Shown here in pieces: positions 430 to 40,022 of a stretch of DNA of 40,338 nt. The DNA is taken from the UHGV virus genome UHGV-0319604; one strand, 5' to 3'. Within the stretch, counting starts at the first letter, position 1. Every line of letters begins with the position of its first letter. The translations under genes and the position numbers were made by a program. Origin of the DNA: a virus. Below the pieces are notes generated by a model that saw only the letters and a list, made by a program, of their open reading frames with translations, made no database searches and was not told the origin of the DNA.

Positions 430-1548
430 TTAAATAGCAAGTTTGGTCCATTCCTTCCCGCGATCATCGTTGTATCTGTCAGTGGTTGACTGTGTTTTAT
501 GCCCCAGCAAAATTTTCGTATCGATCCCCTGGGCGCGGTAAAGTCGTTCGGACAATGAGCGCTGTTCGTGAAACGTTGTGGGTGTTTTTCCTGCAGGCGG
601 TACGATACCGGCTGCATCACGTGCCGCGGCAAACTCTTTGGAAACCAAAATCAGATTCACAGGTTTCGCCTTACTGTTCATTTTCCCGTGCAAGAGGTAG
701 GGACTGACAAACCTATCCCTACATTTCCGTATTACATCCTCCAGCGATAAGCCAATGGCTTCACAACGGAGGTTCAGCGGCAATGCAATACGTGCCCCCG
801 TTTTGCTTTGCTCGATGTGCAGATAGCCGTCCTTAATGTCTGAAAATTTCATGTTCGCAATATCCTCCCGGCGCTGACCAGTGACTAACGCAAGCAGCAT
901 CGCTTTATGCGAGTACCGATCCTCGGGTATTTGCGCCAGTATTTTTTTCCATTCGTCCAGAGAGAGGCGCGCACGTGTAACCTTCACCGAGGGTTTTTTT
1001 GTTGCTGCTGGTGGATTCCATCCAGGAGGCACCTCTCCTGCATGTTGTGCTTCAGTGAAAATATCCACCCATACCACCCGGTTACAGAGGGCACTGCTGG
1101 CATGTCCTGCATCCAGATATTCATCCAGTAACACGGCAAAATCCTTTACCTCCAAACTCTTCATTGGCCGGGAACCAAGCCGCCTGGAAAGCAACTCTGC
1201 CATGCGTTTTTTTTCTTTAAAGCGTTTCAGCGATAGCGATCCGGCATCCAGGCTTTGTGTCTGAATCTTCAGATATCGTTCTATCCATGCTTTGAGGCTG
1301 ATCCCGCGCTGTGCTGCTGCTTTTGGAGTATCATCAATTTGGCGCAAATAGTGCTCGGCTTCTGCTGCTGCAATTCTCTGATTTGCCGTTGTGGCTATTT
1401 TTTCCGCTTTCTCTCTGTCTGTTCCCAGGCCGTGGAACTTACCCGTTAAAGGGTTTTTATACTGGTAGTATGTTTTTGCTGTGCGACGATCAAACCGGGC
1501 ATACAGCCCGGAAATTGATACATTATTTTTTCGTGGCCTTGGTGACAT
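430..1548 (-). CDS. int: Phage integrase, tyrosine recombinase family
   Basis: 372-aa ORF; C-terminal catalytic-type motifs HEQRSLSERLY ... LLGH ... DRY (H-x-x-R and terminal Tyr); position at prophage end overlapping excisionase gene. Confidence 0.85.
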   Translation of the reverse strand: MSPRPRKNNVSISGLYARFDRRTAKTYYQYKNPLTGKFHGLGTDREKAEKIATTANQRIAAAEAEHYLRQIDDTPKAAAQRGISLKAWIERYLKIQTQSLDAGSLSLKRFKEKKRMAELLSRRLGSRPMKSLEVKDFAVLLDEYLDAGHASSALCNRVVWVDIFTEAQHAGEVPPGWNPPAATKKPSVKVTRARLSLDEWKKILAQIPEDRYSHKAMLLALVTGQRREDIANMKFSDIKDGYLHIEQSKTGARIALPLNLRCEAIGLSLEDVIRKCRDRFVSPYLLHGKMNSKAKPVNLILVSKEFAAARDAAGIVPPAGKTPTTFHEQRSLSERLYRAQGIDTKILLGHKTQSTTDRYNDDRGKEWTKLAI

Positions 1549-4053: not shown

Positions 4054-4064
4054 AATAACCTCGT

Positions 4065-4274
4065 TTAATATTTGAAAAATGATGTTGAATGAAATGGCTT
4101 GCGGATGCCGCGTTTTACCTTTCTTAAAGCGTCACGCTTTTCTCTTTTTTCATTGCATTGCTCACATAAATAAATCGTGCGCTTAAAGGGATATATATCT
4201 GTTTTCCTTTCGTGCATTTCCGATTTTTTATATTCGTGGCAGCAAACAGCGCAATGACAAATGACGTCATCCAT
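4065..4274 (-). CDS. Small Cys-rich zinc-ribbon protein (YdaE-like position)
   Basis: ORF with CxC...CC...CxxC cysteine pattern (MDDVICHCAVCCHEY...LCEQCNEKREK); internal Met at 4274 gives tight packing with upstream gene. Confidence 0.45.
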   Translation of the reverse strand: MDDVICHCAVCCHEYKKSEMHERKTDIYPFKRTIYLCEQCNEKREKRDALRKVKRGIRKPFHSTSFFKY

Positions 4275-4275
4275 A

Positions 4276-4548
4276 TTAATTAAGTTGTTGGCGCTTATGA
4301 TCGTAATAGGACATGCCACAGAAGCTCTGCGCTTCTGCGAATTTCACAGATAGCAAACTAATGTGTTTGACAGCGCATGCAGGGCAATCGAACTCCCCGA
4401 GTACGTAGCCACCATCAATCACAACGGTAACAGGGCCAGAGGATGGCAAATGAACCACGCCTGAAATAGCACCGTTAACATTAAATGTTGCAAGGTCTTT
4501 ATTTACGATTGCAAGGCTCAATTCTACGGTGGTAATAGTTGCTTTCAT
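4276..4548 (-). CDS. Hypothetical early protein (90 aa)
   Basis: ORF in track (4276..4587), likely start MKATITTV at 4548; stop lies 2 nt from downstream start. Confidence 0.4.
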   Translation of the reverse strand: MKATITTVELSLAIVNKDLATFNVNGAISGVVHLPSSGPVTVVIDGGYVLGEFDCPACAVKHISLLSVKFAEAQSFCGMSYYDHKRQQLN

Positions 4549-4617
4549 TTTATGATCCTTAATTTGAGGTGTGAAAATCCCTGCCATTTAAGGCATCGAT
4601 TTTTTAAGTTAGGAAAA

Positions 4618-4803
4618 TCAAATAACGTTTAAACTATCGCGCCACTCCTGGCGGGGTTGGCGATGCACTACAAAATTTCTGTATTTACGTAATACTTTCC
4701 AGGCGGCATGACATCCGGCAACATCACGAAGAAACACTGATGTGACAAGTTTCCCCTGAGCCCATGCAATTTGCTGTTCCGGTGTTAATTGTGTTTTATT
4801 CAT
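4618..4803 (-). CDS. Hypothetical early protein (61 aa)
   Basis: ORF in track (4618..4860); probable start MNKTQLTPEQ at 4803. Confidence 0.35.
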   Translation of the reverse strand: MNKTQLTPEQQIAWAQGKLVTSVFLRDVAGCHAAWKVLRKYRNFVVHRQPRQEWRDSLNVI

Positions 4804-4891
4804 TACTGAATACCCCGCTGAGAAATTAATCCTAAAAAGGGCGGTATAATCATGGACCACGGGAAAGCATATACCGCCAAGCGATCAAATC

Positions 4892-5389
4892 TTATAGCAT
4901 CTGAAATAATTGCCGCTGAGTTAATCTCTTTTCCCATAATCGGAGGGCAGTTGCTTTTGCCCAGCGGTACCATTCGCGGCCAGCTTCTTTGTAAGAATTA
5001 CCGAGTCTAACCAGATCCCAGGTTTCCTGTGAGAAGTCGGGCTTTTTATTTGCGATATGTTGCCGGGCAGCGATCATGCTGTCGATTGCTTCGTTGATCT
5101 CCAGCGCTTCGGTGTGGTGAGATTCAATCATCTGCTCGATGGTCTTGCGGCTGTCGTGTTGATTAGCCCATTCATCCCACTGCTCATCTGCTTTCACTTC
5201 GTCGATCTCTGCGTTGAATTCTAGCGCTTCGGCGTGGTCACGTTCTGCCAGAGCTTTTAAAATTTTGTGCATCGTGTTCTCTGATTTCACTTCACGCAAT
5301 GTGCTGCAGTTATACGCGTTGAAGGTGCCATCTTCGCGTTGTTTCACGCTGTATACCGCTTTGCCGATGTTGATTTTGTGGCTGGTCAT
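4892..5389 (-). CDS. Hypothetical early protein (165 aa) with internal 40-residue duplication; first gene of leftward operon
   Basis: ORF in track; DNA near-repeat cgttgatctccagcgcttcggtgtggt (5092-5118) vs cgttgaattctagcgcttcggcgtggt (5212-5238), 120 bp apart, giving protein repeats HAEALEFNAEIDEV / HTEALEINEAIDSM. Confidence 0.5.
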   Translation of the reverse strand: MTSHKINIGKAVYSVKQREDGTFNAYNCSTLREVKSENTMHKILKALAERDHAEALEFNAEIDEVKADEQWDEWANQHDSRKTIEQMIESHHTEALEINEAIDSMIAARQHIANKKPDFSQETWDLVRLGNSYKEAGREWYRWAKATALRLWEKRLTQRQLFQML

Positions 5390-14941: not shown

Positions 14942-15567
14942 ACCAAACACAATTTCAAAAGGCGGCAGGTATCAGCGCCGGGCTGGCTTCGCGCTGGTTT
15001 CCGCAGATTGACAAAGTGATGGAGGAATACGGCATTACCGCTCCGCTTGACCAGGCAATGTTTATCGCACAGATGGGACATGAGTCCACGGGCTTTACCC
15101 GGCTGGTGGAAAACCTGAATTACGCGGCTGAAAACTTAGTGCCCACATTCGGCAGGCACCGCATCACTCCCCAGCAGGCCGCCGCGCTTGGCAGAACGGC
15201 AACACAACCGGCCAACCAGAAAGCGATCGCCAATCTTGTCTACGGGGGAGAGTGGGGCAAAGAGAAACTGGGGAATCAGGTCCCAGGTGACGGCTGGAAA
15301 TATCGTGGCCGTGGGCTGAAGCAAATCACCGGCTTGAGTAACTATCGCGCCTGCGGCCGGGCGCTCAAGCTGGATCTGGTGACACAGCCTGAGTTGCTGG
15401 AAATCGATGAAAACGCCGCTCGTTCAGCTGCGTGGTTCTACGTTTCCCGTGGTTGTCTTCTGCATTCCGGCGATGTTGAACGCGTGACGCTGCTTATTAA
15501 CGGCGGTAGTAATGGCCTGGATAAACGCCGCGCGCTGTTTAACCTGGCAAAATCGGTGCTGGTCTGA
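14938..15567 (+). CDS. Endolysin, glycoside hydrolase family 19 (chitinase-like lysozyme)
   Basis: 209-aa ORF with conserved segments FIAQMGHESTGF, GRGLKQITG, YRACG, typical of GH19 phage endolysins. Confidence 0.8.
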   Translation: MNQTQFQKAAGISAGLASRWFPQIDKVMEEYGITAPLDQAMFIAQMGHESTGFTRLVENLNYAAENLVPTFGRHRITPQQAAALGRTATQPANQKAIANLVYGGEWGKEKLGNQVPGDGWKYRGRGLKQITGLSNYRACGRALKLDLVTQPELLEIDENAARSAAWFYVSRGCLLHSGDVERVTLLINGGSNGLDKRRALFNLAKSVLV

Positions 15568-15574
15568 GGTGGCT

Positions 15575-15853
15575 ATGAGCATTATCGAAAAGTTTTTAGG
15601 CGGTATTGCTGCGCTGGTGGTCGTCGCGCTCAGCGGTTTTGCTGCTGGCAAAGTTCGCGGTCGCGGAAAAGCAGAAGCAAAAGCCAAACAGCAACGCACC
15701 GAAGAGAACGCCGCGGCAACGGTCGCAGCGGCAGAACGTAAAGCGGAAGTCACGAAAGAGGCCAGTAATGTACAGCAGAGTGTTAACCATATGTCTGGCG
15801 ACGATGTTGATCGCGAGCTGCGTGACACGTGGAAGCGTCCCGGTGGTGGTTGA
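15575..15853 (+). CDS. i-spanin (Rz-like)
   Basis: ATG after SD GAGGTGG; N-terminal TM helix (IIEKFLGGIAALVVVALSGFAAG) then charged helical region; follows the endolysin. Confidence 0.5.
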   Translation: MSIIEKFLGGIAALVVVALSGFAAGKVRGRGKAEAKAKQQRTEENAAATVAAAERKAEVTKEASNVQQSVNHMSGDDVDRELRDTWKRPGGG

Positions 15854-16004
15854 TACCGCCTGTGACTGGGTAAAGCCAATCTACCTGACCGATCACGATA
15901 TCGACGTTATGGACCGCCAGACGAAGAAAGACATCCTGGCGCATAACAAAGCGTGGCAGGCGAACTGCCAACAACCAAACGTCATAACCCTCCCCAAAAG
16001 ATAG
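15768..16004 (+). CDS. o-spanin (Rz1-like lipoprotein), +1 frame, overlapping the 3' part of the i-spanin gene
   Basis: Signal peptide with lipobox LIASC (MYSRVLTICLATMLIASCVT...), short Pro-containing mature protein; starts inside and extends beyond Rz. Confidence 0.55.
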   Translation: MYSRVLTICLATMLIASCVTRGSVPVVVDTACDWVKPIYLTDHDIDVMDRQTKKDILAHNKAWQANCQQPNVITLPKR

Positions 16005-16105
16005 GCATTACAGCAGGCATTCACTGAGTGCCTGTGATAGTGCTTTTTAACGATGATATTTACGGGTAATCTGGTTTACTCTGAACAGCACTTAAGAGGG
16101 AACAT

Positions 16106-16378
16106 ATGCCTAATCTGTCAGCCTTGGATTCATGGTTAAAAGTAAGCACGTGGGATACACATCATCCGTTAGACCAACGGCGCTTTTTTAAGGCAGTGTA
16201 TCAGTTGATATCATCGAATGATAAACTTGTGGAACCGCAATATGTTCATGATTACATCGTTAATTATCACGGTGGGAATAAGAATGCTGAACATGTGGAA
16301 AACATCGCAACTATATACGCTGCAAAGTACGACGACATTTACAGTTTTATTTATGAGAACCAAATAGAACTTAACTAA
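16106..16378 (+). CDS. Hypothetical protein (90 aa), AT-rich moron
   Basis: ORF with SD AGAGGGA; visibly lower GC than flanking phage genes; own terminator downstream. Confidence 0.45.
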   Translation: MPNLSALDSWLKVSTWDTHHPLDQRRFFKAVYQLISSNDKLVEPQYVHDYIVNYHGGNKNAEHVENIATIYAAKYDDIYSFIYENQIELN

Positions 16379-16398
16379 ATTTTTTGCTGCTATTTGAA

Positions 16399-16426
16399 GC
16401 CATCTATATTCATAGGTGGCTTTTTT
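16399..16426 (+). terminator. Rho-independent terminator after the AT-rich moron
   Basis: gccatcta-tattca-taggtggc hairpin (one mismatch) followed by tttttt. Confidence 0.5.
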
Positions 16427-16454
16427 ATGCGCAGCACACATCAAAATACACATC

Positions 16455-16994
16455 ATGCAAACAATCATGTGCATCGGTAGCGGCCCGTCGCTGGCACCGA
16501 ATGACTGCTTGCGAGCTAACGATTCAGGTCTGCCAGTTATAGCCGTTAACAACAGTTGGGCTGCAGTGCCAGGCTGTCAGCACATTTATGCAGCAGACTG
16601 CTGCTGGTGGGAAGAATACGGCGCAGGCATAACATCCAACGCTGCCCGGTGGTGTGGTGATGAGTTCACGGCCAGGCGTTTTGGCATTAACTGGCTACCT
16701 TCTGCAATACCCGGTTCGTTTAATTCTGGTCAGCGAGCGATTGAGTTGGCGATCCACCTTGGCGCCAGCCGCGTTCTGTTGCTGGGCTATGACTGCTCAA
16801 TACGAAACGGCACCCACTGGCACGGCAACCACGCTCAGCTGTCCAACCCGGACAAATTCAGCGTAGCGCGCTGGCAGGATGAATTCTCCCGCCTCAGAGT
16901 TATTGCTGGTGGTGTCGAGATAATTAACTGCTCCCGCTTTACGCGGCTTACCTGCTTTCCCCGACAGTCCCTCGAGACTGCACTTTCTCTGTAG
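16455..16994 (+). CDS. Cst-II-like (GT42/DUF115-type) nucleotide-sugar transferase-fold protein
   Basis: N-terminal IMCIGSGPSLAPND resembles the GNGPSL motif at the start of Cst-II-type sialyltransferases; later FNSGQRAIELAIHLGASRVLLLGYDCS resembles the ITSG...IALGYKEIYLSGID segment of that family. Comparison from memory; start codon uncertain (16455 or 16467). Confidence 0.45.
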   Translation: MQTIMCIGSGPSLAPNDCLRANDSGLPVIAVNNSWAAVPGCQHIYAADCCWWEEYGAGITSNAARWCGDEFTARRFGINWLPSAIPGSFNSGQRAIELAIHLGASRVLLLGYDCSIRNGTHWHGNHAQLSNPDKFSVARWQDEFSRLRVIAGGVEIINCSRFTRLTCFPRQSLETALSL

Positions 16995-17001
16995 GAAACT
17001 T

Positions 17002-17868
17002 ATGAAAAGACGAAAGGTCTGCATCCGCGGGATGTATGGGCTTGGTGACTCTATTTACCAGCGGGCGTTTGTACGCCAGTTCCCCGGTGCGTTTCTGCGT
17101 ACACCCTGGCCGGAGCTTTACAGCGATCTCGATGTGAAATTTATTCGCTCTAATACTGCGCTCAGGACTCAGCGAAAAAACGAAGAGCAAACCAACGTGG
17201 AGTTTATTCCGGAACCATCGCGGCCGTCAGAGATACTGACAATTTTTTATGGCCCCGAAGAGCTGAGCAAAGGATCCATCATTGACGCCATGACCTGGCA
17301 ATTTGGCAAGATGGCCAGCGTTTTTGATCTGCCGTCATTCGGTGAATCGCCGGTACAGGTTGATAAGCCGGTTGCAGTAATCCGTCCGGCCACCGTTCGC
17401 AAAGAGTGGGCGAACCCCGCGCGAAATCCTGACCCCAAATACCTCGCGGAAGCCGCACGCGAGCTGCGTAAACATTTTTACGTTGTGAGCCTGGCTGATC
17501 TTGAAGAGGGTGAAGAGTGGCTGGTGGGTGAACTTCCGGAGGCCGATCTCTATCTGCACAAAGGCGAGCTGTCACTAACGGAAATGCTGGCGCTGGTGGA
17601 ACATGCCGCCGTTGTGGTTTCCGGGGTTGGCTGGGCGCTGCCAGCAGCTGTCTGCTACAAAACGCCTGTTTACATCGTTCAGGGTGGATGCGGGGCCCAC
17701 AATGCCCCTCACATCGTCACCGATCCGGAAATGGATCTTTCCCGCGTCGGCTGGGCGCAACCGGATGATTACTGCATGTGCGCGAGCATGGAGCACGACT
17801 GCAGCAAGCACATCACCGGTTTCCTCGATAAATTCAAAGGCTGGCTACATGACATTGTTCTCACATGA
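17002..17868 (+). CDS. Glycosyltransferase family 9-like (heptosyltransferase-like) protein
   Basis: N-terminal VCIRGMYGLGDSIYQRAFVRQF matches the GT9 I-R-x-x-x-LGD signature; C-terminal LSLTEMLALVEHAAVVVSGVGWALPAAVCYKTPVYIV matches the GT9 C-terminal donor-binding segment. Confidence 0.55.
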   Translation: MKRRKVCIRGMYGLGDSIYQRAFVRQFPGAFLRTPWPELYSDLDVKFIRSNTALRTQRKNEEQTNVEFIPEPSRPSEILTIFYGPEELSKGSIIDAMTWQFGKMASVFDLPSFGESPVQVDKPVAVIRPATVRKEWANPARNPDPKYLAEAARELRKHFYVVSLADLEEGEEWLVGELPEADLYLHKGELSLTEMLALVEHAAVVVSGVGWALPAAVCYKTPVYIVQGGCGAHNAPHIVTDPEMDLSRVGWAQPDDYCMCASMEHDCSKHITGFLDKFKGWLHDIVLT

Positions 17869-28523: not shown

Positions 28524-28615
28524 ACCCCCTTGAGCTACGGCGGACGGCCATATCTGACTTCCTGGAGCTGGAAGCGGAGGCCGTCCGCATTAACGAGGAA
28601 GTAAAGCATGGCTGA
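28451..28615 (+). other. Predicted -1 programmed frameshift site (TTTTTTT at 28451-28457) and -1-frame extension giving a G-T-like chaperone fusion
   Basis: 0-frame reads aat ttt ttt acc (N F F T); the -1 frame is open from the slip site to TGA at 28613-28615 (...FFYPIGDGSNLRRRFYNVAWFWKLNPLELRRTAISDFLELEAEAVRINEEVKHG), ending just after the tape measure start. Confidence 0.5.
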
Positions 28616-30584
28616 CAGTTTCCAGTTAAAGGCAATCATCACCGCCGTTGACCAGCTGACCGGGCCGATGAAGGGAATGCAGCGTGAGCTTAAGGGCTTC
28701 CAGAAGGAGATGGGCAGTCTTGCGCTGGGGGCGGCAGCCGCAGGAACTGCCATCCTCGGTGCGCTGGCGCTGCCCATTAATTCTGCGATCGGGTTTGAGT
28801 CAAAAATGGCCGACATCCGAAAGGTAGTTGACGGCCTCGATGATAAAAAAGCGTTTGCGCAGATGAGTGACGATATCCTGACGCTGTCCACGCAGTTACC
28901 GATGGCGGCGGAGGGGATCGCAGAGATTGTGGCGGCAGGCGGCCAGGCGGGGATCGCGCGTAGTGATCTGATGCAGTTCGCCAACGACGCCGTAAAAATG
29001 GGTGTCGCGTTTGACACCACAGCTGAAGAGTCCGGCCAGATGATGGCGCAGTGGCGAACGGCGTTCAAACTGACACAGGATGACGTGGTTGTTCTCGCTG
29101 ACAAGATCAACTATCTGGGGAATACCGGCCCGGCCAACGCGAAGAAAATATCTGAAATCGTCACCCGTATCGGTCCGCTGGGCAGCGTTGCGGGTGTTGC
29201 TTCGGGTGAAATTGCCGCCATGGGGGCCACGATCGCCGGGATGGGGGTAGAATCAGAAATAGCCTCAACCGGTATCAAAAACTTCATGCTGTCGCTTACC
29301 GCTGGAAAATCTGCGACAAAGTCTCAGAAGGAAGCATTAAGAGCCCTTCGGATAAACCCTTCTAAATTAGCTGCTGAAATGCAAAAAGACTCTAAAACCG
29401 CGATCCTCAAGGTTTTAGACTCTCTTTCAAAACTGTCAGCAACTGACAGACCTCAGATATTGACTCAGCTTTTCGGTAAAGAGTCGATAGGGGCTATCGC
29501 ACCGTTGCTGACCAACATGGATCTATTACGCACCAACTTTGAGCGCGTGGCAAATGCCCAGGAATACGGCGGCTCGATGCAGAAGGAATACGCATCCCGT
29601 GCGGCTACAACCGAAAACCAGCTGGTACTGCTGAAAAACAGCGTGAATGCGATTTCGGTGACGCTGGGGGACACTTTCCTGCCCGCCATTAACGAAGCTG
29701 CAGAAGCGGTCATGCCTTACCTGGAGCAGCTCAGAACTTTCGTTCGCGCGAATCCTGAACTGGTACAGACTGCGGCAAAATTTGGTGCGGCGCTGCTGGG
29801 CGTTGGCGTTTCTATCGGCGTGTTATCCCGTGCGATAAAAGTTCTGAATACGGTAATCAATCTGTCACCGGCCAAAGTTGCGATCGCAGCGCTGGCGGCT
29901 GGCGCCATGCTGATCATCCAGAACTGGGATGACGTTGCACCGGTAATAAAAGCTGCGTGGGTTGAGGTGGATAAGGTGGCTCAGGCATTTGGCGGATGGG
30001 AAACCGTACTGGGTGGCGTGGGCTTATATATGACAGGGGCGTTTACAGTTAAAACGATCGGTACCCTGCGCTCAGCGCTGACCCTGGCGACGCAGCTTTC
30101 CGGCGTTCTGGGGAAAATCGCCATGCTGGGAGCAACAACAGTACAGATTGCTGTTGCTATCTACATGTTTGAACAGCTGAAAGAGATAGCCGATGCGGCA
30201 AAGGAAGCGGATCAAACAGATTCATTCTGGGAGTCTCTTAAAAACCGCTGGAATTCTGGTGGCTGGTATAACAACCAGCAAAACCGCGAAATGGTAAAGC
30301 AGGATACAGCAGAGAATTTTCAGCTTCCTGAACCATTGAAAGCATCGATGTATGAGCCTGCAGTACCTTTGGTTCAACCTGTGCGGGTCAGTCCTCCTTC
30401 TTTAGAGTTGGGTAAGCAGCCAGTACTTGAGCGTGCTACCTCTCCGGTTACACAGCGCGGGGAGCTTAAAGTGACTTTCGATAACGCCCCTCCGGGAATG
30501 CGCGTGCAGGAGATCCCGAAAAGCGGTGACCCACTGATGAACATAACCCATGATGTGGGGTATTCTCCTTTCAGGAATAAATAA
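28608..30584 (+). CDS. Tail tape measure protein
   Basis: 658-aa ORF, Ala/Gly-rich helical with hydrophobic central segments; canonical position after the chaperone. Confidence 0.85.
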   Translation: MADSFQLKAIITAVDQLTGPMKGMQRELKGFQKEMGSLALGAAAAGTAILGALALPINSAIGFESKMADIRKVVDGLDDKKAFAQMSDDILTLSTQLPMAAEGIAEIVAAGGQAGIARSDLMQFANDAVKMGVAFDTTAEESGQMMAQWRTAFKLTQDDVVVLADKINYLGNTGPANAKKISEIVTRIGPLGSVAGVASGEIAAMGATIAGMGVESEIASTGIKNFMLSLTAGKSATKSQKEALRALRINPSKLAAEMQKDSKTAILKVLDSLSKLSATDRPQILTQLFGKESIGAIAPLLTNMDLLRTNFERVANAQEYGGSMQKEYASRAATTENQLVLLKNSVNAISVTLGDTFLPAINEAAEAVMPYLEQLRTFVRANPELVQTAAKFGAALLGVGVSIGVLSRAIKVLNTVINLSPAKVAIAALAAGAMLIIQNWDDVAPVIKAAWVEVDKVAQAFGGWETVLGGVGLYMTGAFTVKTIGTLRSALTLATQLSGVLGKIAMLGATTVQIAVAIYMFEQLKEIADAAKEADQTDSFWESLKNRWNSGGWYNNQQNREMVKQDTAENFQLPEPLKASMYEPAVPLVQPVRVSPPSLELGKQPVLERATSPVTQRGELKVTFDNAPPGMRVQEIPKSGDPLMNITHDVGYSPFRNK

Positions 30585-30600
30585 CATCTGGAGATGGAGT

Positions 30601-31053
30601 ATGAATAAAACATTGGTTGCTGCTTGTGTGATGGTTTTGTCTTTTCCTGTATTCGCAAAAAAATCACCTACAGCGGATTTCGTCAATGAAATTGAAACAG
30701 CAATAAACTCAACAGGAGAAGTCTCTACCTCTCTGGATATTACTTGTCCTGCACAATCTGCGAGCGGGCGGGTTTTGGTCACTCATGCCGATTATACTTA
30801 TGGATTGAGTAAGGGAGTCTTTGTCTTCAAAAACACAGATGATATTCCTGCAGAAATGAAAAGTATTATTCCCATCCATCCAAACAACGACATTACGTCG
30901 GATGTCATAAGCGGGTGGGATTTTGGTTTTATAATTCGCGGTGGTCAATTTTTCGTAACGGTTATGAAAAATGGTGTCGTGAAAGCAGGGATAAATAAAA
31001 ACGGCACAACCGGTGTTACGGAAATCAAATGTAAAGTGACAAAACCGCAGTAA
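30601..31053 (+). CDS. Secreted small protein (signal peptide, two Cys), AT-rich moron
   Basis: MNKTLVAACVMVLSFPVFA|KKSP signal peptide; low GC relative to flanks; own terminator downstream; inserted between tape measure and DNA-circulation genes. Confidence 0.5.
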   Translation: MNKTLVAACVMVLSFPVFAKKSPTADFVNEIETAINSTGEVSTSLDITCPAQSASGRVLVTHADYTYGLSKGVFVFKNTDDIPAEMKSIIPIHPNNDITSDVISGWDFGFIIRGGQFFVTVMKNGVVKAGINKNGTTGVTEIKCKVTKPQ

Positions 31054-31076
31054 TCGCTTTATCGACTACATAGAAG

Positions 31077-31100
31077 CCCGCTTAATGCGGGTTTTCTTTT
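31077..31100 (+). terminator. Rho-independent terminator after the secreted-protein moron
   Basis: cccgc-ttaat-gcggg hairpin followed by ttttctttt. Confidence 0.6.
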
Positions 31101-31109
31101 GGGGGCAAT

Positions 31110-32453
31110 ATGGCTTTTTTTTCTTCAACTGACTGGCGCGACAGGCTGCGTGATGCGTCGTTTCGTGGGGTACCTTTTTCAGTGGAGGATGATGAAGGCA
31201 CCTTTGGCCGCCGTGTCCAGGTGCATGAGTATCCAAACCGCGATAAACCCTTTACGGAGGATTTAGGCCGGGCCACGCGGAGAATGACGATCAACGCCTA
31301 CTTAATCGGGGATGATTATGCCGATAAGCGCGATCGTCTAATTGGTGCTGTTGAAACGGCCGGTCCGGGTACGCTTGTTCACCCCCAGTACGGGGAAATG
31401 CAGGGCAGTATCGACGGGCAGGTGAGAGTTACGCACAGCAATGCTGAGGGGCGTATGTGCCGCGTCTCTTTCCAGTTCGTGGAAAGCGGCGAACTGTCAT
31501 TCCCGGTGGCAGGTATGGCGACGGCGCAGCGGCTGAAACAATCCGGCGGCCTGTTTGATGATGCGATTGAAAGCATGTTCTCTGCGTTTTCGCTCTCCGG
31601 CATTGCTGACTTCATCCAGAATGATGTGCTGGCGGACGCGGCCGCGATGCTCGGCGATGTTGCCGACGCATTCCGGATGGTTGATTCCGGCGTCTCAGCG
31701 GCGATGCGTCTGCTGCAGGGCGATCTGTCGGTCATTCTTATGCCGCCAAGCGCGGCCAGTGATTTTGTGCGTGAGCTGCAAAAGGCGTGGCGCGCGGGCG
31801 ATCGGCTTACGGGCGATACGTCAGACCTTGTAACGATGATTAAAACGATGTCAGGCGTGACGCTTGATCCGGGGCTGGCGCCACGGGGAACCTGGCCGAC
31901 AGATTCCGGCTCTGTTGAGGTGCAAAAGGCCAGGAGTAATATGATTGCCGCGGTCATCAGATCTTCGGCAATCAGTACCGCGTCACAGGCGGTGTCCACG
32001 CTGGCGCAGCCCAAAACCATCGCGGCGCCGCAGGGGCAGGCTGGCAAGATTACTGGCGGCGCGGCCAGCAATGACATTATTAATATCTCTCATCCTGCGC
32101 TCGACGGCTCCGGTACCACAGTTGCGCCGGAAGACCCGCCGACGTGGGACGAATTAACCGAAATCCGCAGCGCACTGAATGCAGCCATCGACCAGGAGCA
32201 GCTGCGAATTACCGATGACGGAATTTTCCAGCAAATAACGGTACTGAGAACGGACCTCAACCGGGATATTTCCGCCCGACTTGCGCAGGTGGAAATCACT
32301 GCAGAGCGAACTCCTCCTGATGTGCTGCCAGCACTGGTGCTGGCGGCTAACTGGTATGACGATGCGGATCGGGAAAAAGATATTCTTTCGCGAAATCTGG
32401 TTCGTCATCCCGGGTTCGTTCCGGTTAAACCTCTGAGGGTGCCCGTGAGATGA
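31110..32453 (+). CDS. DNA circulation protein (Mu gpN-like)
   Basis: 447-aa ORF after the tape measure; N-terminal FRGVPFSVEDDEGTFGRRVQVHEYP typical of Mu N-type proteins. Confidence 0.7.
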   Translation: MAFFSSTDWRDRLRDASFRGVPFSVEDDEGTFGRRVQVHEYPNRDKPFTEDLGRATRRMTINAYLIGDDYADKRDRLIGAVETAGPGTLVHPQYGEMQGSIDGQVRVTHSNAEGRMCRVSFQFVESGELSFPVAGMATAQRLKQSGGLFDDAIESMFSAFSLSGIADFIQNDVLADAAAMLGDVADAFRMVDSGVSAAMRLLQGDLSVILMPPSAASDFVRELQKAWRAGDRLTGDTSDLVTMIKTMSGVTLDPGLAPRGTWPTDSGSVEVQKARSNMIAAVIRSSAISTASQAVSTLAQPKTIAAPQGQAGKITGGAASNDIINISHPALDGSGTTVAPEDPPTWDELTEIRSALNAAIDQEQLRITDDGIFQQITVLRTDLNRDISARLAQVEITAERTPPDVLPALVLAANWYDDADREKDILSRNLVRHPGFVPVKPLRVPVR

Positions 32454-35527: not shown

Positions 35528-36114
35528 TGGCACTGAATGATGAATATGAGCAGCTTCTCTATAAGCTGCTGCCACCCGGCCCGGCATGGGAGGGAGAGAA
35601 CCCGCTGATTGAAGGTCTGGCACCGTCTCTCACGCGCGTACATCAGCGTGCTAATGCGCTGATGAAGGAAATCGACCCGGCTCAAACGACAGAGCTGATA
35701 GACCGTTATGAAACCGTCTACGGCCTGCCCGATTCGTGTACTCCTGACGGCGTGCAGTCGCTACGACAGCGCCAGCAGCGTCTTGACGCGAAAGCCAACG
35801 TTGCGGGCGGGATTAACGAACAGTTTTACCGCAACCAGCTGGACGCGCTGGGCTACACCACGGCCACTATCGAACAGTTTCAGAACCTTGACAGCACCCC
35901 TGATCCGGAATGGGGGGAGTTCTGGCGCTATTACTGGCGCGTGAATATTCCGGCAGATGCCAATGTCAGCTGGCAGACCTGCACCAGCGCGTGCAATTCC
36001 GCAATCAGAACATGGGGCGACACGATCGCAGAGTGCGTCATTGAAAAACTGGCGCCATCGCACACCGTTGTTGTTTTCGCTTACCCGGAAGGAACAAACA
36101 ATGCATCGAATTGA
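35527..36114 (+). CDS. Tail protein (Mu gp48-like)
   Basis: 195-aa ORF immediately upstream of the tail fibre gene. Confidence 0.6.
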
Positions 36115-37480
36115 TACACCTACGGCACAGGCCGATAAATTTGGACCCGGCAAAAATGGTTTTACGAATGGCGACCCGGCGACCGGCCGCCGCGCTACCG
36201 ACCTGAACAGTGACATGTGGGATGCTGTTCAGGAGGAGATCTGCGCTGTAATTGAAAAGTCAGGGCTGGCCCTGAATAAAGATCAGCACGATCAGCTTTA
36301 TCAGGCGATCGTTAAAATTATCACTTCCAAAATTCCAGATGCTCTCCTGAAAAAAAACAACCTGTCTGACCTGACAGATAAAGTGCTGGCGCGGGCCAAC
36401 CTGCAGTTAAAGACGGCAGCGCAAAAAGATGTCGTCACCTCTAAAACTGACGTGACCGCTGATCGAGTTTTAACTACTGGCTGGATGAGTCTCGGTGGAT
36501 ACGGTACAGATAATATGATTGCGGGCGCTGATGCACTAAAACCGCTGAGAAACGGTTTTTACGGCGTACAGACTGAGCCTACATATGGAAACGCTGCGCT
36601 AATTAGCTTTGGCTATGACTCAGGTTCGCAGGTTCATATTATTGCGAGGCAGGGCGGGCAGGCTCCAGCACTGGGTGTATGTGGCTCCACGCCTCAAGGG
36701 GTGTTTGGTAACTGGGGAAAAATCTATACTGAATTTCAGAAACCCACTGCTGGGGATGTAGGTGCGCTGCCAATTGGGGGCGGAACTTTAAGCGGCGCTT
36801 TAGCTGTTGTTCAAAATGGCGCAGCAATAGCAGTCCAGAGCAGAACAGCATCTCAAGCGGTGTATATGATAGGTAAGGATTATGATGGCGCAAATTGCTG
36901 GTACGTAGGACGTGGAGGGGCTAATTACAGCATTGCACTTTATAACTATAAAGGTACTAACGGATTAAATATTAACGAAGATGGTTCAATAGCTTTAAAT
37001 CTGGCAAACGGGAAACCATTTACCATAAACGGGCAAGTGGTTCCTTCCAATTATACAAATTTTGATTCACGATATGTATTAACGGATGGAGCTACATACG
37101 CAGGATTTGTGAACGGTGATGCAACCCGGCCTTATATGCGCCATCGAGTTAGCAATGCAGTGGTGGAGCTGGCAAAAAAAGGGGATTCGTATACTAAAGC
37201 AGAGAGCGAAAGCCGCTACCAGCCAAAAGGAAATTACACCCCAGCAGGGCAGGCTTACACAAAGACTGAAAGTGATGCACGATATGTGCAAGGAGTACAG
37301 CTTGGCGCTCGGTCACTAAGTGCATCATCTAATGCTTCGGGAGGTAATCTTTATCTTCCTGCTGGTTGTGTAGCTACTGGATACACTTCGCCTGGTTCTT
37401 CTAACGCTAACGATGTGAGGTTTTACTATAAACCCATTCAGCGGAATATTAACGGAACGTGGGTAACAATCTCAGGCTAA
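36101..37480 (+). CDS. Tail fibre protein (conserved N-terminus, variable AT-richer C-terminal receptor-binding part)
   Basis: Start ATG 36101 ([29 protein letters not shown]...); tandem protein repeats [10 protein letters not shown] / [10 protein letters not shown]; GC drops in the 3' half. Confidence 0.75.
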
Positions 37481-37490
37481 AGGAATTATA

Positions 37491-38075
37491 ATGCAAAACA
37501 TTAAGAATTTTAAAGTCGTAAAACCAACACCTAAACAATTGGAACTGTATACTGCAATGGATGGAACAGTCCCTATATTCCTACAATCAGAAGACGGCAG
37601 AGATTGGTTTGAATGTCACGAATTGTTTTCAGATGAAACAGTGAAAATTATGTACGACAGCAACGGGATTATTTGCTCAGTCGTTGATGAACGAGTCCCT
37701 GAGCGAGGAAATATCTATGCGGTGTCGATGTTTTACCCTGAAAATATGAGCGTAGCTGAAGTAGCACTAAGCGATTATCCTGAAGGGGTGAATATTGACG
37801 GATCTTGGATGTATAGTGATGGGAAAATTGTTCCGGTTCCTGTTGACGTGGTTTCGGAAGCAGAAAAAGAGAAAGCGCAGCGATTAAGTGAAGCGGAGGT
37901 AGCGATTGCGCCACTTCAAAGAGCCGTAAAATACGGGATCGCTACTGATGAAGAAAAAAAATCGCTTGAAAAATGGGAAGTATACACTGTCATGCTAAGT
38001 CGTGTTAATGCTTCTCAGGCTCCGGATATTTTGTGGCCTGAGAAGCTAGGGGGAGAGACAGAAACTACAATGTGA
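37491..38075 (+). CDS. Tail fibre assembly protein
   Basis: 194-aa ORF directly after the fibre gene; C-terminal ...EKWEVYTVMLSRVNASQAPDILWP typical of Tfa chaperones. Confidence 0.7.
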   Translation: MQNIKNFKVVKPTPKQLELYTAMDGTVPIFLQSEDGRDWFECHELFSDETVKIMYDSNGIICSVVDERVPERGNIYAVSMFYPENMSVAEVALSDYPEGVNIDGSWMYSDGKIVPVPVDVVSEAEKEKAQRLSEAEVAIAPLQRAVKYGIATDEEKKSLEKWEVYTVMLSRVNASQAPDILWPEKLGGETETTM

Positions 38076-38081
38076 GGGTTC

Positions 38082-39194
38082 TTACCTTTTGGAACAATCC
38101 TCGTTACTATTCAAGCATTCATCAATCAAATCAAGTATAGGACTTACATCTGCATCCATAACGCGACGCTCTTTTAGTCTCACCTGTTTAGCTAATTTAT
38201 AGTTTGGCCCCCACACATCCGCATTATCTGCTGGGGCGACGAGTATTTTGAATGGGTAAACACAGATTAGCCTTTTCTGAAATGCTCTGGATACATGTAC
38301 AAAAGAAGTGTCTGGGGAAATAACTAGAGCGCTTTCTTTTATTATTTGTGCTGCGGAAAAGAATGACGGCGTAGTATTTTTAGTTACATTTTCTGAATCG
38401 GGGATAGATGCAATTTTATGCTGCTCCCCGAGGATGATCATGTGATACGAATTGGCGTGTTTAGCCATATGATTTGTTATGGTTTCAATTTGCGAGGCTG
38501 AAAAAAAGCGCTCGCTGACGCTACCATAAGGGATAAATGACACTATTATTTTATTAGTGGTCTTTTTAATAAATTCCTGTGCCGCATCAGCATCTTTTTT
38601 AGGAATGATAACAGAGTAATCATAATCTGTTACACTGATACCTAACCCTTCAAGCAGGTCGATGTACCGTGTGCTAATATGAGCCAAGGGATTTTTTATT
38701 TTAATGACTTCATCGTATATTCGATATTTGTTTGTAAATCCAATGGTCTTATAAGGCTTGGAGAGTCTAATTAAATTAAATGTATCAACATTAGAGTGAG
38801 TTACCTCATGCGAATCAATGAAAGTAAATGGATTGATTGCATTGAGCGCAGCAAGGAGCGGCTTTTTATTATTTGGTTCATATAAATATAACCCGTGTAA
38901 ATTTTTCCACTCTTTAAATAAAAAATAAGTTCTTTTATCTGCTATTACAGACACCCGGTAATTGTTTCTCACCAGTGTATCAATTACCCCTCCAATAACA
39001 ACAGCATCCCCAATACCTTTAGCGATGAAAGGTATTACCAAATGGTTTGTTCCCGAATCAAGCCTGTCTTTATTGCGGCGGGCGCGAGTAGCAATCTCAC
39101 TTAATAAACTCAATTTGAGCTTTAATTTTGCTCTTTTGAGATAATAATTTTTAGATCTGTTTGCTTTCCTAAGCCATTTGATCACTGTTTTCAC
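38082..39194 (-). CDS. Glycosyltransferase family 9-like (heptosyltransferase-like) protein, AT-rich moron
   Basis: 370-aa ORF; IAKGIGDAVVIGGVIDTL (GT9 N-terminal signature) and ALVISPDTSFVHVSRAFQKRLICVY (GT9 C-terminal segment); clearly lower GC than the phage backbone; opposite strand to tail genes. Confidence 0.55.
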   Translation of the reverse strand: MKTVIKWLRKANRSKNYYLKRAKLKLKLSLLSEIATRARRNKDRLDSGTNHLVIPFIAKGIGDAVVIGGVIDTLVRNNYRVSVIADKRTYFLFKEWKNLHGLYLYEPNNKKPLLAALNAINPFTFIDSHEVTHSNVDTFNLIRLSKPYKTIGFTNKYRIYDEVIKIKNPLAHISTRYIDLLEGLGISVTDYDYSVIIPKKDADAAQEFIKKTTNKIIVSFIPYGSVSERFFSASQIETITNHMAKHANSYHMIILGEQHKIASIPDSENVTKNTTPSFFSAAQIIKESALVISPDTSFVHVSRAFQKRLICVYPFKILVAPADNADVWGPNYKLAKQVRLKERRVMDADVSPILDLIDECLNSNEDCSKR

Positions 39195-39272: not shown

Positions 39273-39872
39273 TTAATGTTGCAGCCAGCGATCACGCGCT
39301 TGCCGTGCTATGGCGATCATTTTCTGTATCTCTCCGAGAGTGAATTTTTCTGCTTCATCACACGGCATGACCACATAGCCGGAACGGATCACATGTTCTA
39401 GGCACGAATCGGGGTTCATAACCACTTCGCCAGGCATAAGAGGGTGACAGGCCACGGGCAGGCCGTTTTCGAAATAGGTGATTACTGCGTAATTACCCTG
39501 GCGTGATGCTGCTGGGGCTCTCTTTTGCAGTTCGGCTTCCATCTGGTTAAAAGCTTTAATGTAATTGATCTTCCACTGGAGTGCTTTTTTGCCGGTGAAT
39601 CCCATGACGATTAGAGAGAAAGCATCACGGGTCATTTCGAATGCAGGTGCAGAGATTCTAGCTCCGCCGTTAGGATTTTCCCGCTCATAGTGCGTCTCCT
39701 TAAAATTCAGGAGACGCCATTCTGAGTCACACTCTGATATAACAGTTCTGATTTTTTCCATGACATTGTCATGCCGTTTTTGGAAGTAGTTGGCAACAGC
39801 AACAGATGTGGTGATCGCGCGGTTATCGCACACTTTCACTTCGGGGAGCAAGGGAGAGATTGAAGTAGTCAT
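39273..39872 (-). CDS. Rha-family phage regulatory protein
   Basis: N-terminal VCDNRAITTSVAVANYFQKRHDNVMEKIR matches the Rha-domain signature (...T.S..VA..F.KRHDNV...I). Confidence 0.6.
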   Translation of the reverse strand: MTTSISPLLPEVKVCDNRAITTSVAVANYFQKRHDNVMEKIRTVISECDSEWRLLNFKETHYERENPNGGARISAPAFEMTRDAFSLIVMGFTGKKALQWKINYIKAFNQMEAELQKRAPAASRQGNYAVITYFENGLPVACHPLMPGEVVMNPDSCLEHVIRSGYVVMPCDEAEKFTLGEIQKMIAIARQARDRWLQH

Positions 39873-39983
39873 GTAGACCTCAGCTAAGTTTTTTCGAATG
39901 ATGCCTAATGGCGCCGGGAGGTTCGAAACGGCTTAGCAAAACCGCGGACTTATTCCCCTTTCGGGTGTTGTATTAGTCGCCCT

Positions 39984-40022
39984 CCCGACCTTGATCGGGA
40001 TGCGTCCGCTAACTGCGTCCGC
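39984..40022. repeat. Hairpin cccga-ccttga-tcggg (39984-39999) plus tandem direct repeat TGCGTCCGC (40001-40009, 40014-40022) upstream of the Rha-family gene
   Basis: Seen directly in the 256-bp noncoding region upstream of rha. Confidence 0.35.

What the first reader, a model, noticed from the sequence alone, without database searches (positions are those of the whole stretch)
30601..31100. AT-rich secreted-protein moron inside the tail gene cluster
A 150-aa protein with a clear signal peptide and two cysteines, low GC and its own terminator interrupts the otherwise compact tape measure to DNA-circulation junction. Such insertions in tail operons are typical of lysogenic-conversion or host-interaction cargo such as periplasmic effectors, immunity or exclusion factors.
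Basis: partly seen in the sequence, partly recalled or inferred. Interest (0 to 1): 0.5.

Follow-up and report, generated by a model that had tools for sequence, protein, structure and literature searches.

The report
Exported-protein moron after tape-measure gene
A small accessory gene for an exported beta-barrel protein of unknown function has been slotted in after the tape-measure gene of an Enterobacter prophage; it is a textbook phage "moron", possibly an anti-phage factor, and not a new kind of system.

Summary
ORF 30601-31053 (+) encodes a 150-aa protein with a conserved Sec-type signal peptide (predicted cleavage VFA|KK). The mature protein has two invariant cysteines. GC is 0.40 against 0.53-0.57 in the flanks.

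It sits between the tape-measure gene and the Mu gp43-like hub gene of an HK97-head/Mu-tail prophage of the Enterobacter cloacae complex. Among 81 related tail modules, 63 have an empty 18-67 bp junction, 17 carry this gene, and one carries an unrelated lipoprotein. In some relatives the gene is split by IS1. It is therefore a dispensable cassette in an insertion hot spot.

One detail of the finding is wrong. The terminator is not the gene's own: the same hairpin and T-run follows the tape-measure stop codon in relatives that lack the gene. No convincing own promoter was found.

The protein belongs to phrog_5586 (unknown function), a very small family under purifying selection (dN/dS 0.06-0.22). 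The AlphaFold model is a soluble 8-stranded calycin-like barrel with no specific structural match. Distant relatives sit beside repA/parA/repressor genes of phage-plasmids.

My best guess, which is an inference, is a periplasmic binder that blocks entry of superinfecting phage. It is a new member of a known kind, of modest interest.

The parts
28608..30584 (+). Tape-measure protein gene (658 aa). Its last three codons and stop (AAT AAA TAA, 30576-30584) are AT-rich and differ from gene-less relatives, so they appear to come from the inserted cassette.
   Evidence: PF10145 E 1.4e-40. C-terminal comparison...GYSPFRNK* here against ...GYSPFRTPR* / ...GYSPFRTSR* in gene-less relatives.
30538..30566 (+). 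Weak sigma-70-like site inside the 3' end of the tape-measure gene: TGAACA (30538-30543), 17 nt, TATTCT (30561-30566), 8 of 12 matches. It is only a candidate promoter for the cargo gene.
   Evidence: My own scan; it falls below the threshold of the tool scan. The same segment survives as a non-coding remnant upstream of the gene in L022 and L023, where the second hexamer reads TATTAT and TATCCT respectively.
30576..31074 (+). Approximate extent of the inserted cassette (about 500 bp), defined as the stretch with no counterpart in gene-less relatives.
   Evidence: DNA alignment with F1055, ST64B, phiP27 and SfV. Junction sequences of 17 gene-less classes.
30590..30593 (+). Shine-Dalgarno GGAG, 7 nt before the ATG. 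The CTGGAGATGGAGT-ATG start region is conserved among alleles with 47-58% protein identity.
   Evidence: Sequence; upstream regions of alleles.
30601..30657 (+). Signal peptide (residues 1-19), with predicted signal peptidase I cleavage after VFA.
   Evidence: Hydrophobicity and the -3/-1 rule in 17 alleles. pLDDT is below 50 for residues 1-19 only.
30658..31053 (+). Mature 131-aa protein: helix 23-35 followed by eight beta-strands. C49 and C144 are invariant. The motifs CPAxSASG and AG(I/V)NKNGT are conserved among the closer alleles. The stop codon is included.
   Evidence: AlphaFold2 mean pLDDT 83, pTM 0.77. Alignments A1 and A4. phrog_5586 E 2e-61. dN/dS 0.06-0.22.
31073..31101 (+). Hairpin GAAGCCCGC-TTAAT-GCGGGTTTT followed by CTTTTG. 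It looks like an intrinsic terminator, belongs to the tail module and is shared with gene-less relatives.
   Evidence: Fold. Present in 28/35 gene-less and 32/34 gene-bearing non-redundant junctions.
31110..32453 (+). Mu gp43/N-like 'DNA circulation' baseplate hub gene, the right-hand neighbour.
   Evidence: PF07157 E 7.5e-36.

Best explanation
What it is (shown). The gene is a roughly 500-bp accessory cassette, a moron, inserted between the last codons of the tape-measure gene and a pre-existing terminator-like hairpin that precedes the gp43-like hub gene. The host is an HK97-head/Mu-tail prophage of the Enterobacter cloacae complex. The cassette encodes a Sec-exported, soluble protein of about 131 aa: one helix plus an 8-stranded barrel, with a conserved cysteine pair that probably forms a periplasmic disulfide.

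How it is expressed (partly inferred). Only 16 nt and no hairpin separate it from the tape-measure stop codon, so it must be co-transcribed with the late tail operon and end at the module's own hairpin. Expression in the lysogen would need a promoter inside the 3' end of the tape-measure gene. A weak candidate exists at 30538-30566, but this is not shown.

What it does (inferred). The protein is most likely a non-enzymatic periplasmic binding protein that benefits the lysogen by blocking a periplasmic step of entry of superinfecting phage, for example by binding the ejected tape-measure or hub proteins, or a host factor they need. It is unlikely to act by masking the tail-fibre receptor.

My confidence is about 0.9 that it is a moron encoding an exported protein, and about 0.3-0.35 that the function is superinfection exclusion. 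The score below is for the whole statement.
For: Moron status:
- Of 81 tail modules retrieved with gp43, 63 are empty at this junction, 17 carry the gene and 1 carries an unrelated lipoprotein.
- ST64B, SfV, phiP27 and F1055 have 15-45 bp between the annotated tape-measure and gp43 genes.
- GC is 0.34-0.43 against 0.50-0.59 in every locus.
- L022 and L023 carry a non-coding remnant of a window-type tape-measure 3' end in front of the gene, a footprint of cassette transfer.
- Allele identity is incongruent with the neighbours: in L008 the protein is 47% identical while its neighbours are 77-92% identical.
- IS1-split copies exist.

Real exported protein:
- dN/dS is 0.06-0.22.
- Signal-peptide architecture is conserved while its sequence varies.
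- C49 and C144 are invariant across the extended family.
- The model is confident, and its strands alternate polar and apolar residues as in a soluble barrel (and the sequence).

Use in the lysogenic state:
- Distant family members lie between repA, parA, toxin-antitoxin and cI-like genes of phage-plasmids.
- One such contig has the same Mu-like tail with an empty junction.

Binder rather than enzyme:
- Only Cys, Gly and aromatic residues are family-wide conserved.
- The pI of the mature protein ranges from 4.7 to 8.6.

Not coupled to the receptor:
- The identical protein occurs with four different tail-fibre genes.

Precedents:
- The HK97 gp15 moron, in the tail operon next to the tape-measure gene, blocks genome entry (PMC3594210).
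- The exported Ltp of phage TP-J34 is reported to target the tape-measure protein (Bebeacua 2013, as cited in PMC3952083).
Against: - There is no experimental or homology-based link to any function: no hit in Pfam, NCBIfam or PADLOC.
- No convincing promoter was found. Expression may therefore be only late and lytic, which fits a lytic-cycle role as well as it fits lysogenic conversion.
- Pairwise dN/dS shows no sign of an arms race.
- Physical linkage to the tape-measure gene says nothing about the target.
Confidence: 0.35

Rival explanations
1. It has a lytic-cycle role. The protein is made only late, by read-through of the tail operon, and acts in the periplasm of the infected cell. It might stop late superinfection, or stop progeny from wasting themselves on debris (as proposed for T5 Llp, from my own knowledge), or modulate the envelope before lysis.
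For: - There are 16 nt and no terminator between the tape-measure stop and the gene.
- No site passes the promoter scan on the + strand.
- The only terminator is the module's own, downstream of the gene.
Against: - Family members in phage-plasmids sit in the repA/parA/repressor region, not in late operons.
- Most relatives do without the gene.
- Other alleles have 56-109 bp AT-rich spacers upstream that could hold promoters.
Confidence: 0.2
2. It is an envelope-protective inhibitor or immunity protein: a periplasmic barrel that neutralises a peptidoglycan hydrolase (PliC/MliC-like lysozyme inhibitor) or a periplasm-acting bacteriocin or type VI effector, protecting the lysogen from host or competitor attack.
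For: - It is exported, small, carries a conserved cysteine pair (probable disulfide) and has a conserved SxSG-containing loop.
Against: - Avidins, designed barrels and many unrelated barrels score as high or higher.
- Sequence identity to the PliC-type hits is 9-13%.
- No MliC/PliC Pfam hit appears even at E = 10.
- The SASG loop lies between strands 1 and 2, whereas the PliC/MliC motifs lie late in the sequence (the latter from my own memory of the literature, not tested here).
- No partner toxin gene lies nearby.
Confidence: 0.12
3. It is a host-fitness or virulence cargo unrelated to phage defence: a calycin-like ligand binder (lipid, siderophore, haem, vitamin) or host-interaction factor that changes lysogen physiology.
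For: - The fold class (avidin, lipocalin, hemophilin, FABP-type barrels) is typical of small-ligand binders.
- Close variants are very common in Salmonella enterica (several sequence variants seen on at least 1000 contigs each).
- The E. coli allele is in 101 of 5426 complete genomes.
Against: - No conserved polar pocket residues exist across the family.
- The family is confined to phage and phage-plasmid contexts, with only 16 representatives among 1.84 billion proteins.
- None was found in a chromosomal metabolic context.
Confidence: 0.15
4. It is a structural or assembly component of the tail, conserved in position because it works with the tape-measure and hub proteins.
For: In 43 of 44 loci retrieved with the protein itself, it lies exactly between the tape-measure and gp43 genes, down to 34% identity.
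Against: - A cleavable signal peptide sends it out of the cytoplasm, where tails assemble.
- 63 of 81 related tail modules lack it. These include sequenced phages deposited as phage genomes: SfV, phiP27 and F1055.
- IS1-split copies exist.
- Homologues occur outside tail modules.
Confidence: 0.03

Closest known systems
HK97 gene 15 moron (gp15 superinfection-exclusion protein; Juhala 2000, Cumby 2012, reviewed in PMC3594210)
   Same: Both are a single small gene of deviant GC inserted in the tail operon next to the tape-measure gene. Both are absent from close relatives, and both products go to the cell envelope. gp15 is expressed from the prophage and blocks genome entry in a way that depends on the incoming phage's tail region.
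   Different: gp15 is a YebO-like inner-membrane protein lying between the tail chaperone and tape-measure genes, with its own promoter and terminator. The protein here is a soluble exported beta-barrel lying after the tape-measure gene, with no sequence relation to gp15, no demonstrated promoter and a borrowed terminator. Its function has not been tested.
phrog_5586 (PHROGs family of unknown function), e.g. URC09681.1 of Escherichia phage vB_EcoM-720R4
   Same: There is direct sequence membership (E 2e-61). The 720R4 homologue (34% identity) occupies the same tape-measure/Mup43 junction.
   Different: Nothing is known about the family, so membership adds no function.
Ltp of Streptococcus phage TP-J34 (exported superinfection-exclusion lipoprotein reported to target the tape-measure protein; Bebeacua 2013, cited in PMC3952083)
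   Same: It is a prophage-encoded protein exported across the cytoplasmic membrane that is reported to stop DNA injection by acting on the incoming tape-measure protein. That is the kind of mechanism proposed here.
   Different: Ltp is a lipoprotein of a Gram-positive siphovirus and is encoded in the lysogeny module. No sequence similarity was detected. The fold difference is from my own knowledge (helical repeats against a barrel) and was not tested here.
PliC/MliC periplasmic lysozyme inhibitors
   Different: There is no Pfam match, identity is 9-13%, equally good matches go to unrelated barrels, and X has an extra N-terminal helix.
Lambda Lom / Bor, phi80 Cor and T5 Llp (envelope morons and receptor-blocking lipoproteins)
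   Same: They are phage accessory genes whose exported products alter the envelope of the lysogen. Lom also sits among tail genes.
   Different: Lom is an integral outer-membrane barrel, and Bor, Cor and Llp are lipoproteins. X has no usable lipobox (its only VAAC lies at residue 9), no C-terminal aromatic residue, and polar outward-facing strand residues. The identical X occurs with different tail fibres, which argues against receptor masking.

Membership tests
Moron (Juhala/Hendrix definition, as summarised in PMC3594210) | Extra DNA present in one phage and absent between the same adjacent genes in related phages | tested here: met
   63 of 81 related junctions are empty (18-67 bp), 17 carry X and 1 carries other cargo. 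ST64B, SfV, phiP27 and F1055 are empty.
Moron (Juhala/Hendrix definition, as summarised in PMC3594210) | [quoted passage not shown] | tested here: met
   0.40 against 0.53/0.57 in the window. The same holds in all 40+ loci.
Moron (Juhala/Hendrix definition, as summarised in PMC3594210) | Own promoter | tested here: inconclusive
   No + strand site passes the scan. Only an 8/12 match at 30538-30566, inside the tape-measure gene, was found. That segment is retained as a non-coding remnant in L022/L023.
Moron (Juhala/Hendrix definition, as summarised in PMC3594210) | Own terminator | tested here: not met
   The hairpin at 31073-31101 is homologous to the one that directly follows the tape-measure stop in gene-less relatives. 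The phage-plasmid homologues do have a hairpin of their own.
Moron (Juhala/Hendrix definition, as summarised in PMC3594210) | Expressed from the repressed prophage | not testable with these tools
   This needs RNA-seq or proteomics of an uninduced lysogen.
phrog_5586 | Significant full-length match to the family profile | tested here: met
   E 2e-61, residues 1-149 on profile positions 1-156 of 161. Distant members P0023 and P0026 also match.
Sec/signal peptidase I exported proteins | Positively charged n-region, hydrophobic h-region, small residues at -3/-1, no lipobox at the cleavage site | tested here: met
   Rule-based check on 17 alleles. SignalP itself was not available.
PliC/MliC lysozyme inhibitors (Pfam MliC) | Match to the family profile, including its conserved inhibitory-loop motifs | tested here: not met
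Ail/Lom/OmpX outer-membrane barrels | Profile match, and long amphipathic strands with an apolar exterior and a C-terminal aromatic residue | tested here: not met
   No Pfam hit. Strands are 6-9 residues with polar alternate positions, and the C-terminus is ...KVTKPQ.
Phage envelope lipoproteins (Bor, Cor, Llp, Ltp) | Lipobox [LVI][ASTVI][GAS]C at the end of the signal peptide | tested here: not met
   The only such motif (VAAC, residues 6-9) would leave an 8-residue signal peptide, and C9 is not conserved. The L093-type allele has LTSC at residues 12-15, which was not resolved.
Known anti-phage defence systems (PADLOC-DB) | Match to any model | tested here: not met
   No family at E <= 10.

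The most novel reading that the evidence does not exclude
phrog_5586 proteins would be a new class of periplasmic superinfection-exclusion factor in Enterobacterales: soluble disulfide-bonded barrels that capture the ejected tape-measure or hub complex of Mu-type contractile tails, or a periplasmic host factor it needs. The tape-measure/hub junction would be a dedicated hot spot for such envelope-acting cargo (X, the L097 lipoprotein, the HIRAN + X-like pair).
Probability: 0.25. Interest if true: 0.5.

Novelty: new member of a known kind. Interest (0 to 1): 0.3.

Why it matters
If the protein does block phage entry from the periplasm, it would add a soluble periplasmic mechanism to the few known exclusion proteins of Gram-negative temperate phages. 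It could also help explain phage host-range patterns, because the gene is common:
- Several Salmonella sequence variants are each seen on at least 1000 contigs.
- The E. coli allele is in about 2% of complete E. coli genomes.

That is relevant to phage therapy and typing.

The analysis also defines a reusable genomic landmark: the junction between the tape-measure stop codon and the conserved hairpin before gp43 in SfV/ST64B-like phages. Accessory cargo can be harvested systematically from this site.

As it stands, this is an ordinary moron of unknown function.

Tried and rejected
- Megablast of the region against the phage and E. coli collections found nothing. The window is from the Enterobacter cloacae complex.
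- Pfam, NCBIfam and PADLOC scans of X found nothing. A Pfam scan of all 12 family members at E <= 10 gave only noise.
- The NCBI name 'DUF2850 domain-containing protein' on a partial Salmonella homologue could not be reproduced, so I rejected it.
- A profile search of PDB sequences gave only chance ferritin hits with E > 0.04.
- An exhaustive profile search of 1.84 billion representatives and a second search with a broadened profile found no link to any annotated family.
- Foldseek against PDB and BFVD gave nothing at E <= 0.001. The afdb50 library was unavailable.
- I tested whether the L097 lipoprotein is a diverged X. hhalign probability was 0.2, so I rejected this.
- Receptor-masking (Cor/Llp-like) is disfavoured because the identical X travels with four different fibre genes.
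- An outer-membrane barrel (Lom-like) was rejected on strand length and polarity.
- The longer 167-aa ORF starting at 30550 was rejected. All homologues start at the MxK of 30601, which has a conserved Shine-Dalgarno sequence.
- Minus-strand ORFs in the interval (79 and 126 aa) have no support. Rfam and tRNA scans found nothing in the interval.
- Literature searches for the family or for a moron at this junction found nothing specific.

Full report
**1. The observation**

The window is a complete prophage.
- It has a lambda-type integrase at 430-1548 (-), an HK97-type head module and a Mu-type contractile tail.
- It also has a tail fibre gene, and a GC-poor glycosyltransferase plus a Rha gene at the right end.

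The finding lies inside the tail module, where the gene order is sheath, tube, chaperone, tape-measure and then the Mu gp43/N-like 'DNA circulation' gene.
- The tape-measure gene is at 28608-30584 (PF10145).
- The gp43-like gene is at 31110-32453 (PF07157).

An ORF of 150 codons lies at 30601-31053 on the + strand.
- A GGAG sits 7 nt before its ATG.
- GC falls to 0.38-0.42 over the gene, against 0.51-0.60 on either side.
- The N-terminus MNKTLVAACVMVLSFPVFA|KK has the n/h/c layout of a signal peptidase I substrate.
- The same layout, with an x-A|K site at residues 18-20, recurs in 17 alleles whose signal-peptide sequences differ.
- The mature protein has two cysteines, C49 and C144, which are invariant even in relatives of 24-29% identity. 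A third cysteine, C9, lies in the signal peptide and is not conserved.
- Pairwise dN/dS is 0.06-0.22, so this is a real gene under purifying selection.

**2. It is an accessory cassette in a hot spot**

The exact protein is annotated 'hypothetical protein [Enterobacter cloacae complex]'.
- Variants about 92% identical are very common in Salmonella enterica.
- The E. coli allele is in 101 of 5426 complete genomes, always as 'hypothetical protein'.

I retrieved 44 loci with the protein itself. In 43 of them the gene lies exactly between the tape-measure and gp43 genes, down to 34% identity in Escherichia phage vB_EcoM-720R4. The exception, L009, is a decayed remnant with a frameshifted copy.

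I then did the reverse experiment and retrieved tail modules with gp43.
- Of 81 modules, 63 have an empty junction of 18-67 bp and 17 carry the gene.
- One (L097) carries an unrelated 151-aa lipoprotein with an LAGC lipobox; hhalign probability against X is 0.2.
- ST64B, SfV, phiP27 and F1055 are all empty.
- Carriers and non-carriers occur within the same gp43 identity class (about 80%, 68% and 63%).
- Allele identity is partly incongruent with the neighbours. In L008, X is 47% identical while the tube, gp44, tape-measure and gp43 proteins are 77-92% identical. In L007 and L010 the tape-measure protein is 74% identical while X is 93-100%.
- In L103 and in E. coli PEC122 the gene is split by IS1.
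- In L022 and L023 a non-coding remnant of a window-type tape-measure 3' end lies between the resident tape-measure stop and the gene. This is a footprint of the cassette having moved in together with a piece of its former neighbour.
- In L134 a more distant family member follows a tape-measure gene and a HIRAN-domain gene.

Every locus shows the same low GC: 0.34-0.43 against 0.50-0.59. Together this is the textbook signature of a moron in an insertion hot spot.

**3. The terminator is not the gene's own, and a promoter is not evident**

The hairpin GAAGCCCGC-TTAAT-GCGGGTTTT plus CTTTTG (31073-31101) is real. The 63-nt stretch containing it folds at -17.5 kcal/mol, z = -2.4.

Gene-less relatives have the same element directly after the tape-measure stop.
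- L050 reads taa|ACCCGCTTAAGGCGGGTTTTCTTTTGGGGGCTAT|atg.
- ST64B reads taa|ACCTGCTCCGGCAGGTTTTCTTATGGGGTAAAT|atg.
- A perfect stem of at least 5 bp followed by a T-run precedes gp43 in 28 of 35 non-redundant gene-less junctions and in 32 of 34 gene-bearing ones.

The cassette (about 30576-31074) was therefore inserted between the last codons of the tape-measure gene and a pre-existing hairpin. It even supplies the last three tape-measure codons and the stop...GYSPFRNK* here against ...GYSPFRTPR* in L050.

Upstream, only 16 nt separate the tape-measure stop from the ATG.
- The tool scan finds no + strand promoter.
- The best candidate is an 8/12 match, TGAACA-17-TATTCT at 30538-30566, inside the tape-measure gene.
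- Retention of that segment in the non-coding remnant of L022/L023 is suggestive and no more.

What the sequence shows is that the gene must be read through from the late tail operon. Expression in the lysogen is an inference.

**4. The protein**

Sequence searches:
- X matches phrog_5586 (unknown function) at E 2e-61.
- It matches nothing in Pfam, NCBIfam or PADLOC.
- The family is tiny: 16 representatives at E <= 0.001 among 1.84 billion cluster representatives.
- A broadened profile found nothing further.

Structure:
- AlphaFold2 with a 12-sequence alignment gives mean pLDDT 83 and pTM 0.77. Only the signal peptide scores low.
- The mature protein is one helix (residues 23-35) followed by eight strands.
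- Identity to the top 30 hits is 2-14%.
- Foldseek against PDB and BFVD gives nothing at E <= 0.001.

Residues conserved across the whole family are Cys, Gly and aromatics. The pI of the mature protein varies from 4.7 to 8.6, and strand residues alternate polar and apolar. The picture is a soluble periplasmic barrel that probably carries a disulfide and acts as a binder, not an enzyme and not a membrane barrel.

**5. Clues to when and why it is used**

- Three distant members (P0023, P0025, P0027) lie between repA or parC-like, toxin-antitoxin, parA and cI-like genes of phage-plasmids. Each is followed by its own hairpin.
- P0025's contig is the same 35.3-kb viral contig whose Mu-type tail has no cargo gene in its 67-bp junction.
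- The family therefore occurs in two classic cargo positions, one of which is a maintenance/lysogeny region. That argues for a role in the carrier state.
- The identical protein occurs with four different tail-fibre genes. It is not tuned to the fibre's receptor.

**6. Most likely mechanism and rivals**

I commit to the following, marked as inference: a periplasmic binder that protects the carrier cell by blocking a periplasmic step of entry of superinfecting phage, for example by capturing the ejected tape-measure or hub proteins.

Two precedents support the idea.
- The HK97 gp15 moron lies next to the tape-measure gene, is expressed from the prophage and blocks genome entry in a way that depends on the incoming tail (PMC3594210).
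- The exported Ltp of TP-J34 is reported to target the tape-measure protein (Bebeacua 2013, cited in PMC3952083).

I put this at about 0.3-0.35. The rivals are:
- a purely late, lytic-cycle role (0.2);
- a PliC-like inhibitor or immunity protein (0.12);
- a ligand-binding fitness factor (0.15);
- a tail component (0.03), which the signal peptide and the many gene-less relatives contradict.

**7. Comparison, novelty and verdict**

By sequence the gene is a member of phrog_5586. By architecture it is a moron, although it borrows the module's terminator and has no demonstrated promoter. It is not a member of the gp15/YebO, Lom/Ail, Bor/Cor/Llp or PliC/MliC families. No profile matches, there is no usable lipobox, and the strand character is wrong.

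It is a new (uncharacterised) member of a known kind. Interest is modest. The family is widespread in Salmonella, E. coli, Enterobacter and Citrobacter prophages and is cheap to test, but nothing here is surprising to a phage biologist.

The most useful by-products are:
- the correction about the terminator;
- the definition of the hot spot between the tape-measure stop and the hairpin;
- the transfer footprint in L022/L023.

Noticed in passing
window 31073-31101; L046-L129 junctions: A GC-rich hairpin with a T-run sits immediately after the tape-measure stop codon and before gp43 in most SfV/ST64B-like tail modules, whether or not cargo is present (28/35 gene-less and 32/34 gene-bearing non-redundant junctions). 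It may be a conserved partial terminator or attenuator that sets the ratio of sheath/tube/tape-measure to baseplate transcripts.
   Followed up: partly
L097 1920-2375: An unrelated 151-aa predicted lipoprotein (MKKALIILSCLFCLAGC...) occupies the same tape-measure/gp43 junction. It has no Pfam or PHROG match, and hhalign probability against X is 0.2.
   Followed up: partly
L134 2387-3423: A tape-measure gene is followed by a HIRAN-domain gene (PF08797, E 8e-9) and then a distant X-family gene. This is a two-gene cargo at the same kind of site, and the contig ends there.
   Followed up: no
L103 2570-3980; E. coli NZ_CM168021.1 (hit H47): The X gene is split by an IS1 element in one viral contig and in one complete E. 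coli genome.
   Followed up: partly
L022 5894-6000; L023 1997-2105: A non-coding remnant of about 60 nt from a window-type tape-measure 3' end (…TGATGAACATTACCCATGATGTGAGTTATTATTAATC…) lies between the resident tape-measure stop and X. This is a footprint of cassette transfer between different tape-measure alleles.
   Followed up: partly
L130 740-1270; L133 2919-3413; L132 1-452 / L135; L105: Distant X-family genes lie beside repA (IncFII), parA, toxin-antitoxin and cI-like genes of phage-plasmids. One such contig (IMGVR_UViG_2903080973_000001, 35.3 kb) also carries the Mu-type tail with no cargo gene in its 67-bp tape-measure/gp43 junction.
   Followed up: partly
window 38082-39194 (-): A GC-poor (0.34-0.42) family 9 glycosyltransferase-like gene lies at the right end of the prophage, next to a Rha gene at 39273-39872 (-). 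Relatives carry other genes here, such as a hexapeptide acetyltransferase in L004. It is probably a second, LPS-modifying conversion cargo.
   Followed up: no
window 39905-39989 (-): Rfam match to sRNA-Xcc1 (RF02221, 72 bits against a gathering score of 53), just upstream of the Rha gene.
   Followed up: no
window 4001-5000 and 16001-16500: Two further GC dips (0.41 and 0.40) contain ORFs without Pfam matches (4276-4587 -, 4892-5389 -, 16106-16378 +). They may be other morons.
   Followed up: no
L002-L005 about 15500-17500 (window 35957-38075): Prophages with the identical X protein and near-identical tail modules carry four different tail-fibre/chaperone pairs (gp37_trimer, Gp53-like_C, Collar and Gp34_trimer types). 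This shows fibre swapping at the module's end.
   Followed up: no
L009 5850-6510: In Candidatus Pantoea haifensis only a frameshifted X, the hairpin and the first ~25 codons of gp43 remain. It is a decayed prophage remnant.
   Followed up: partly
L046 3501-4838 (ST64B AY055382): The gp43 homologue sb17 is annotated as only 1014 nt, with 323 unannotated nt before sb18, although tblastn aligns the full-length protein. This may be a frameshift in the record.
   Followed up: no
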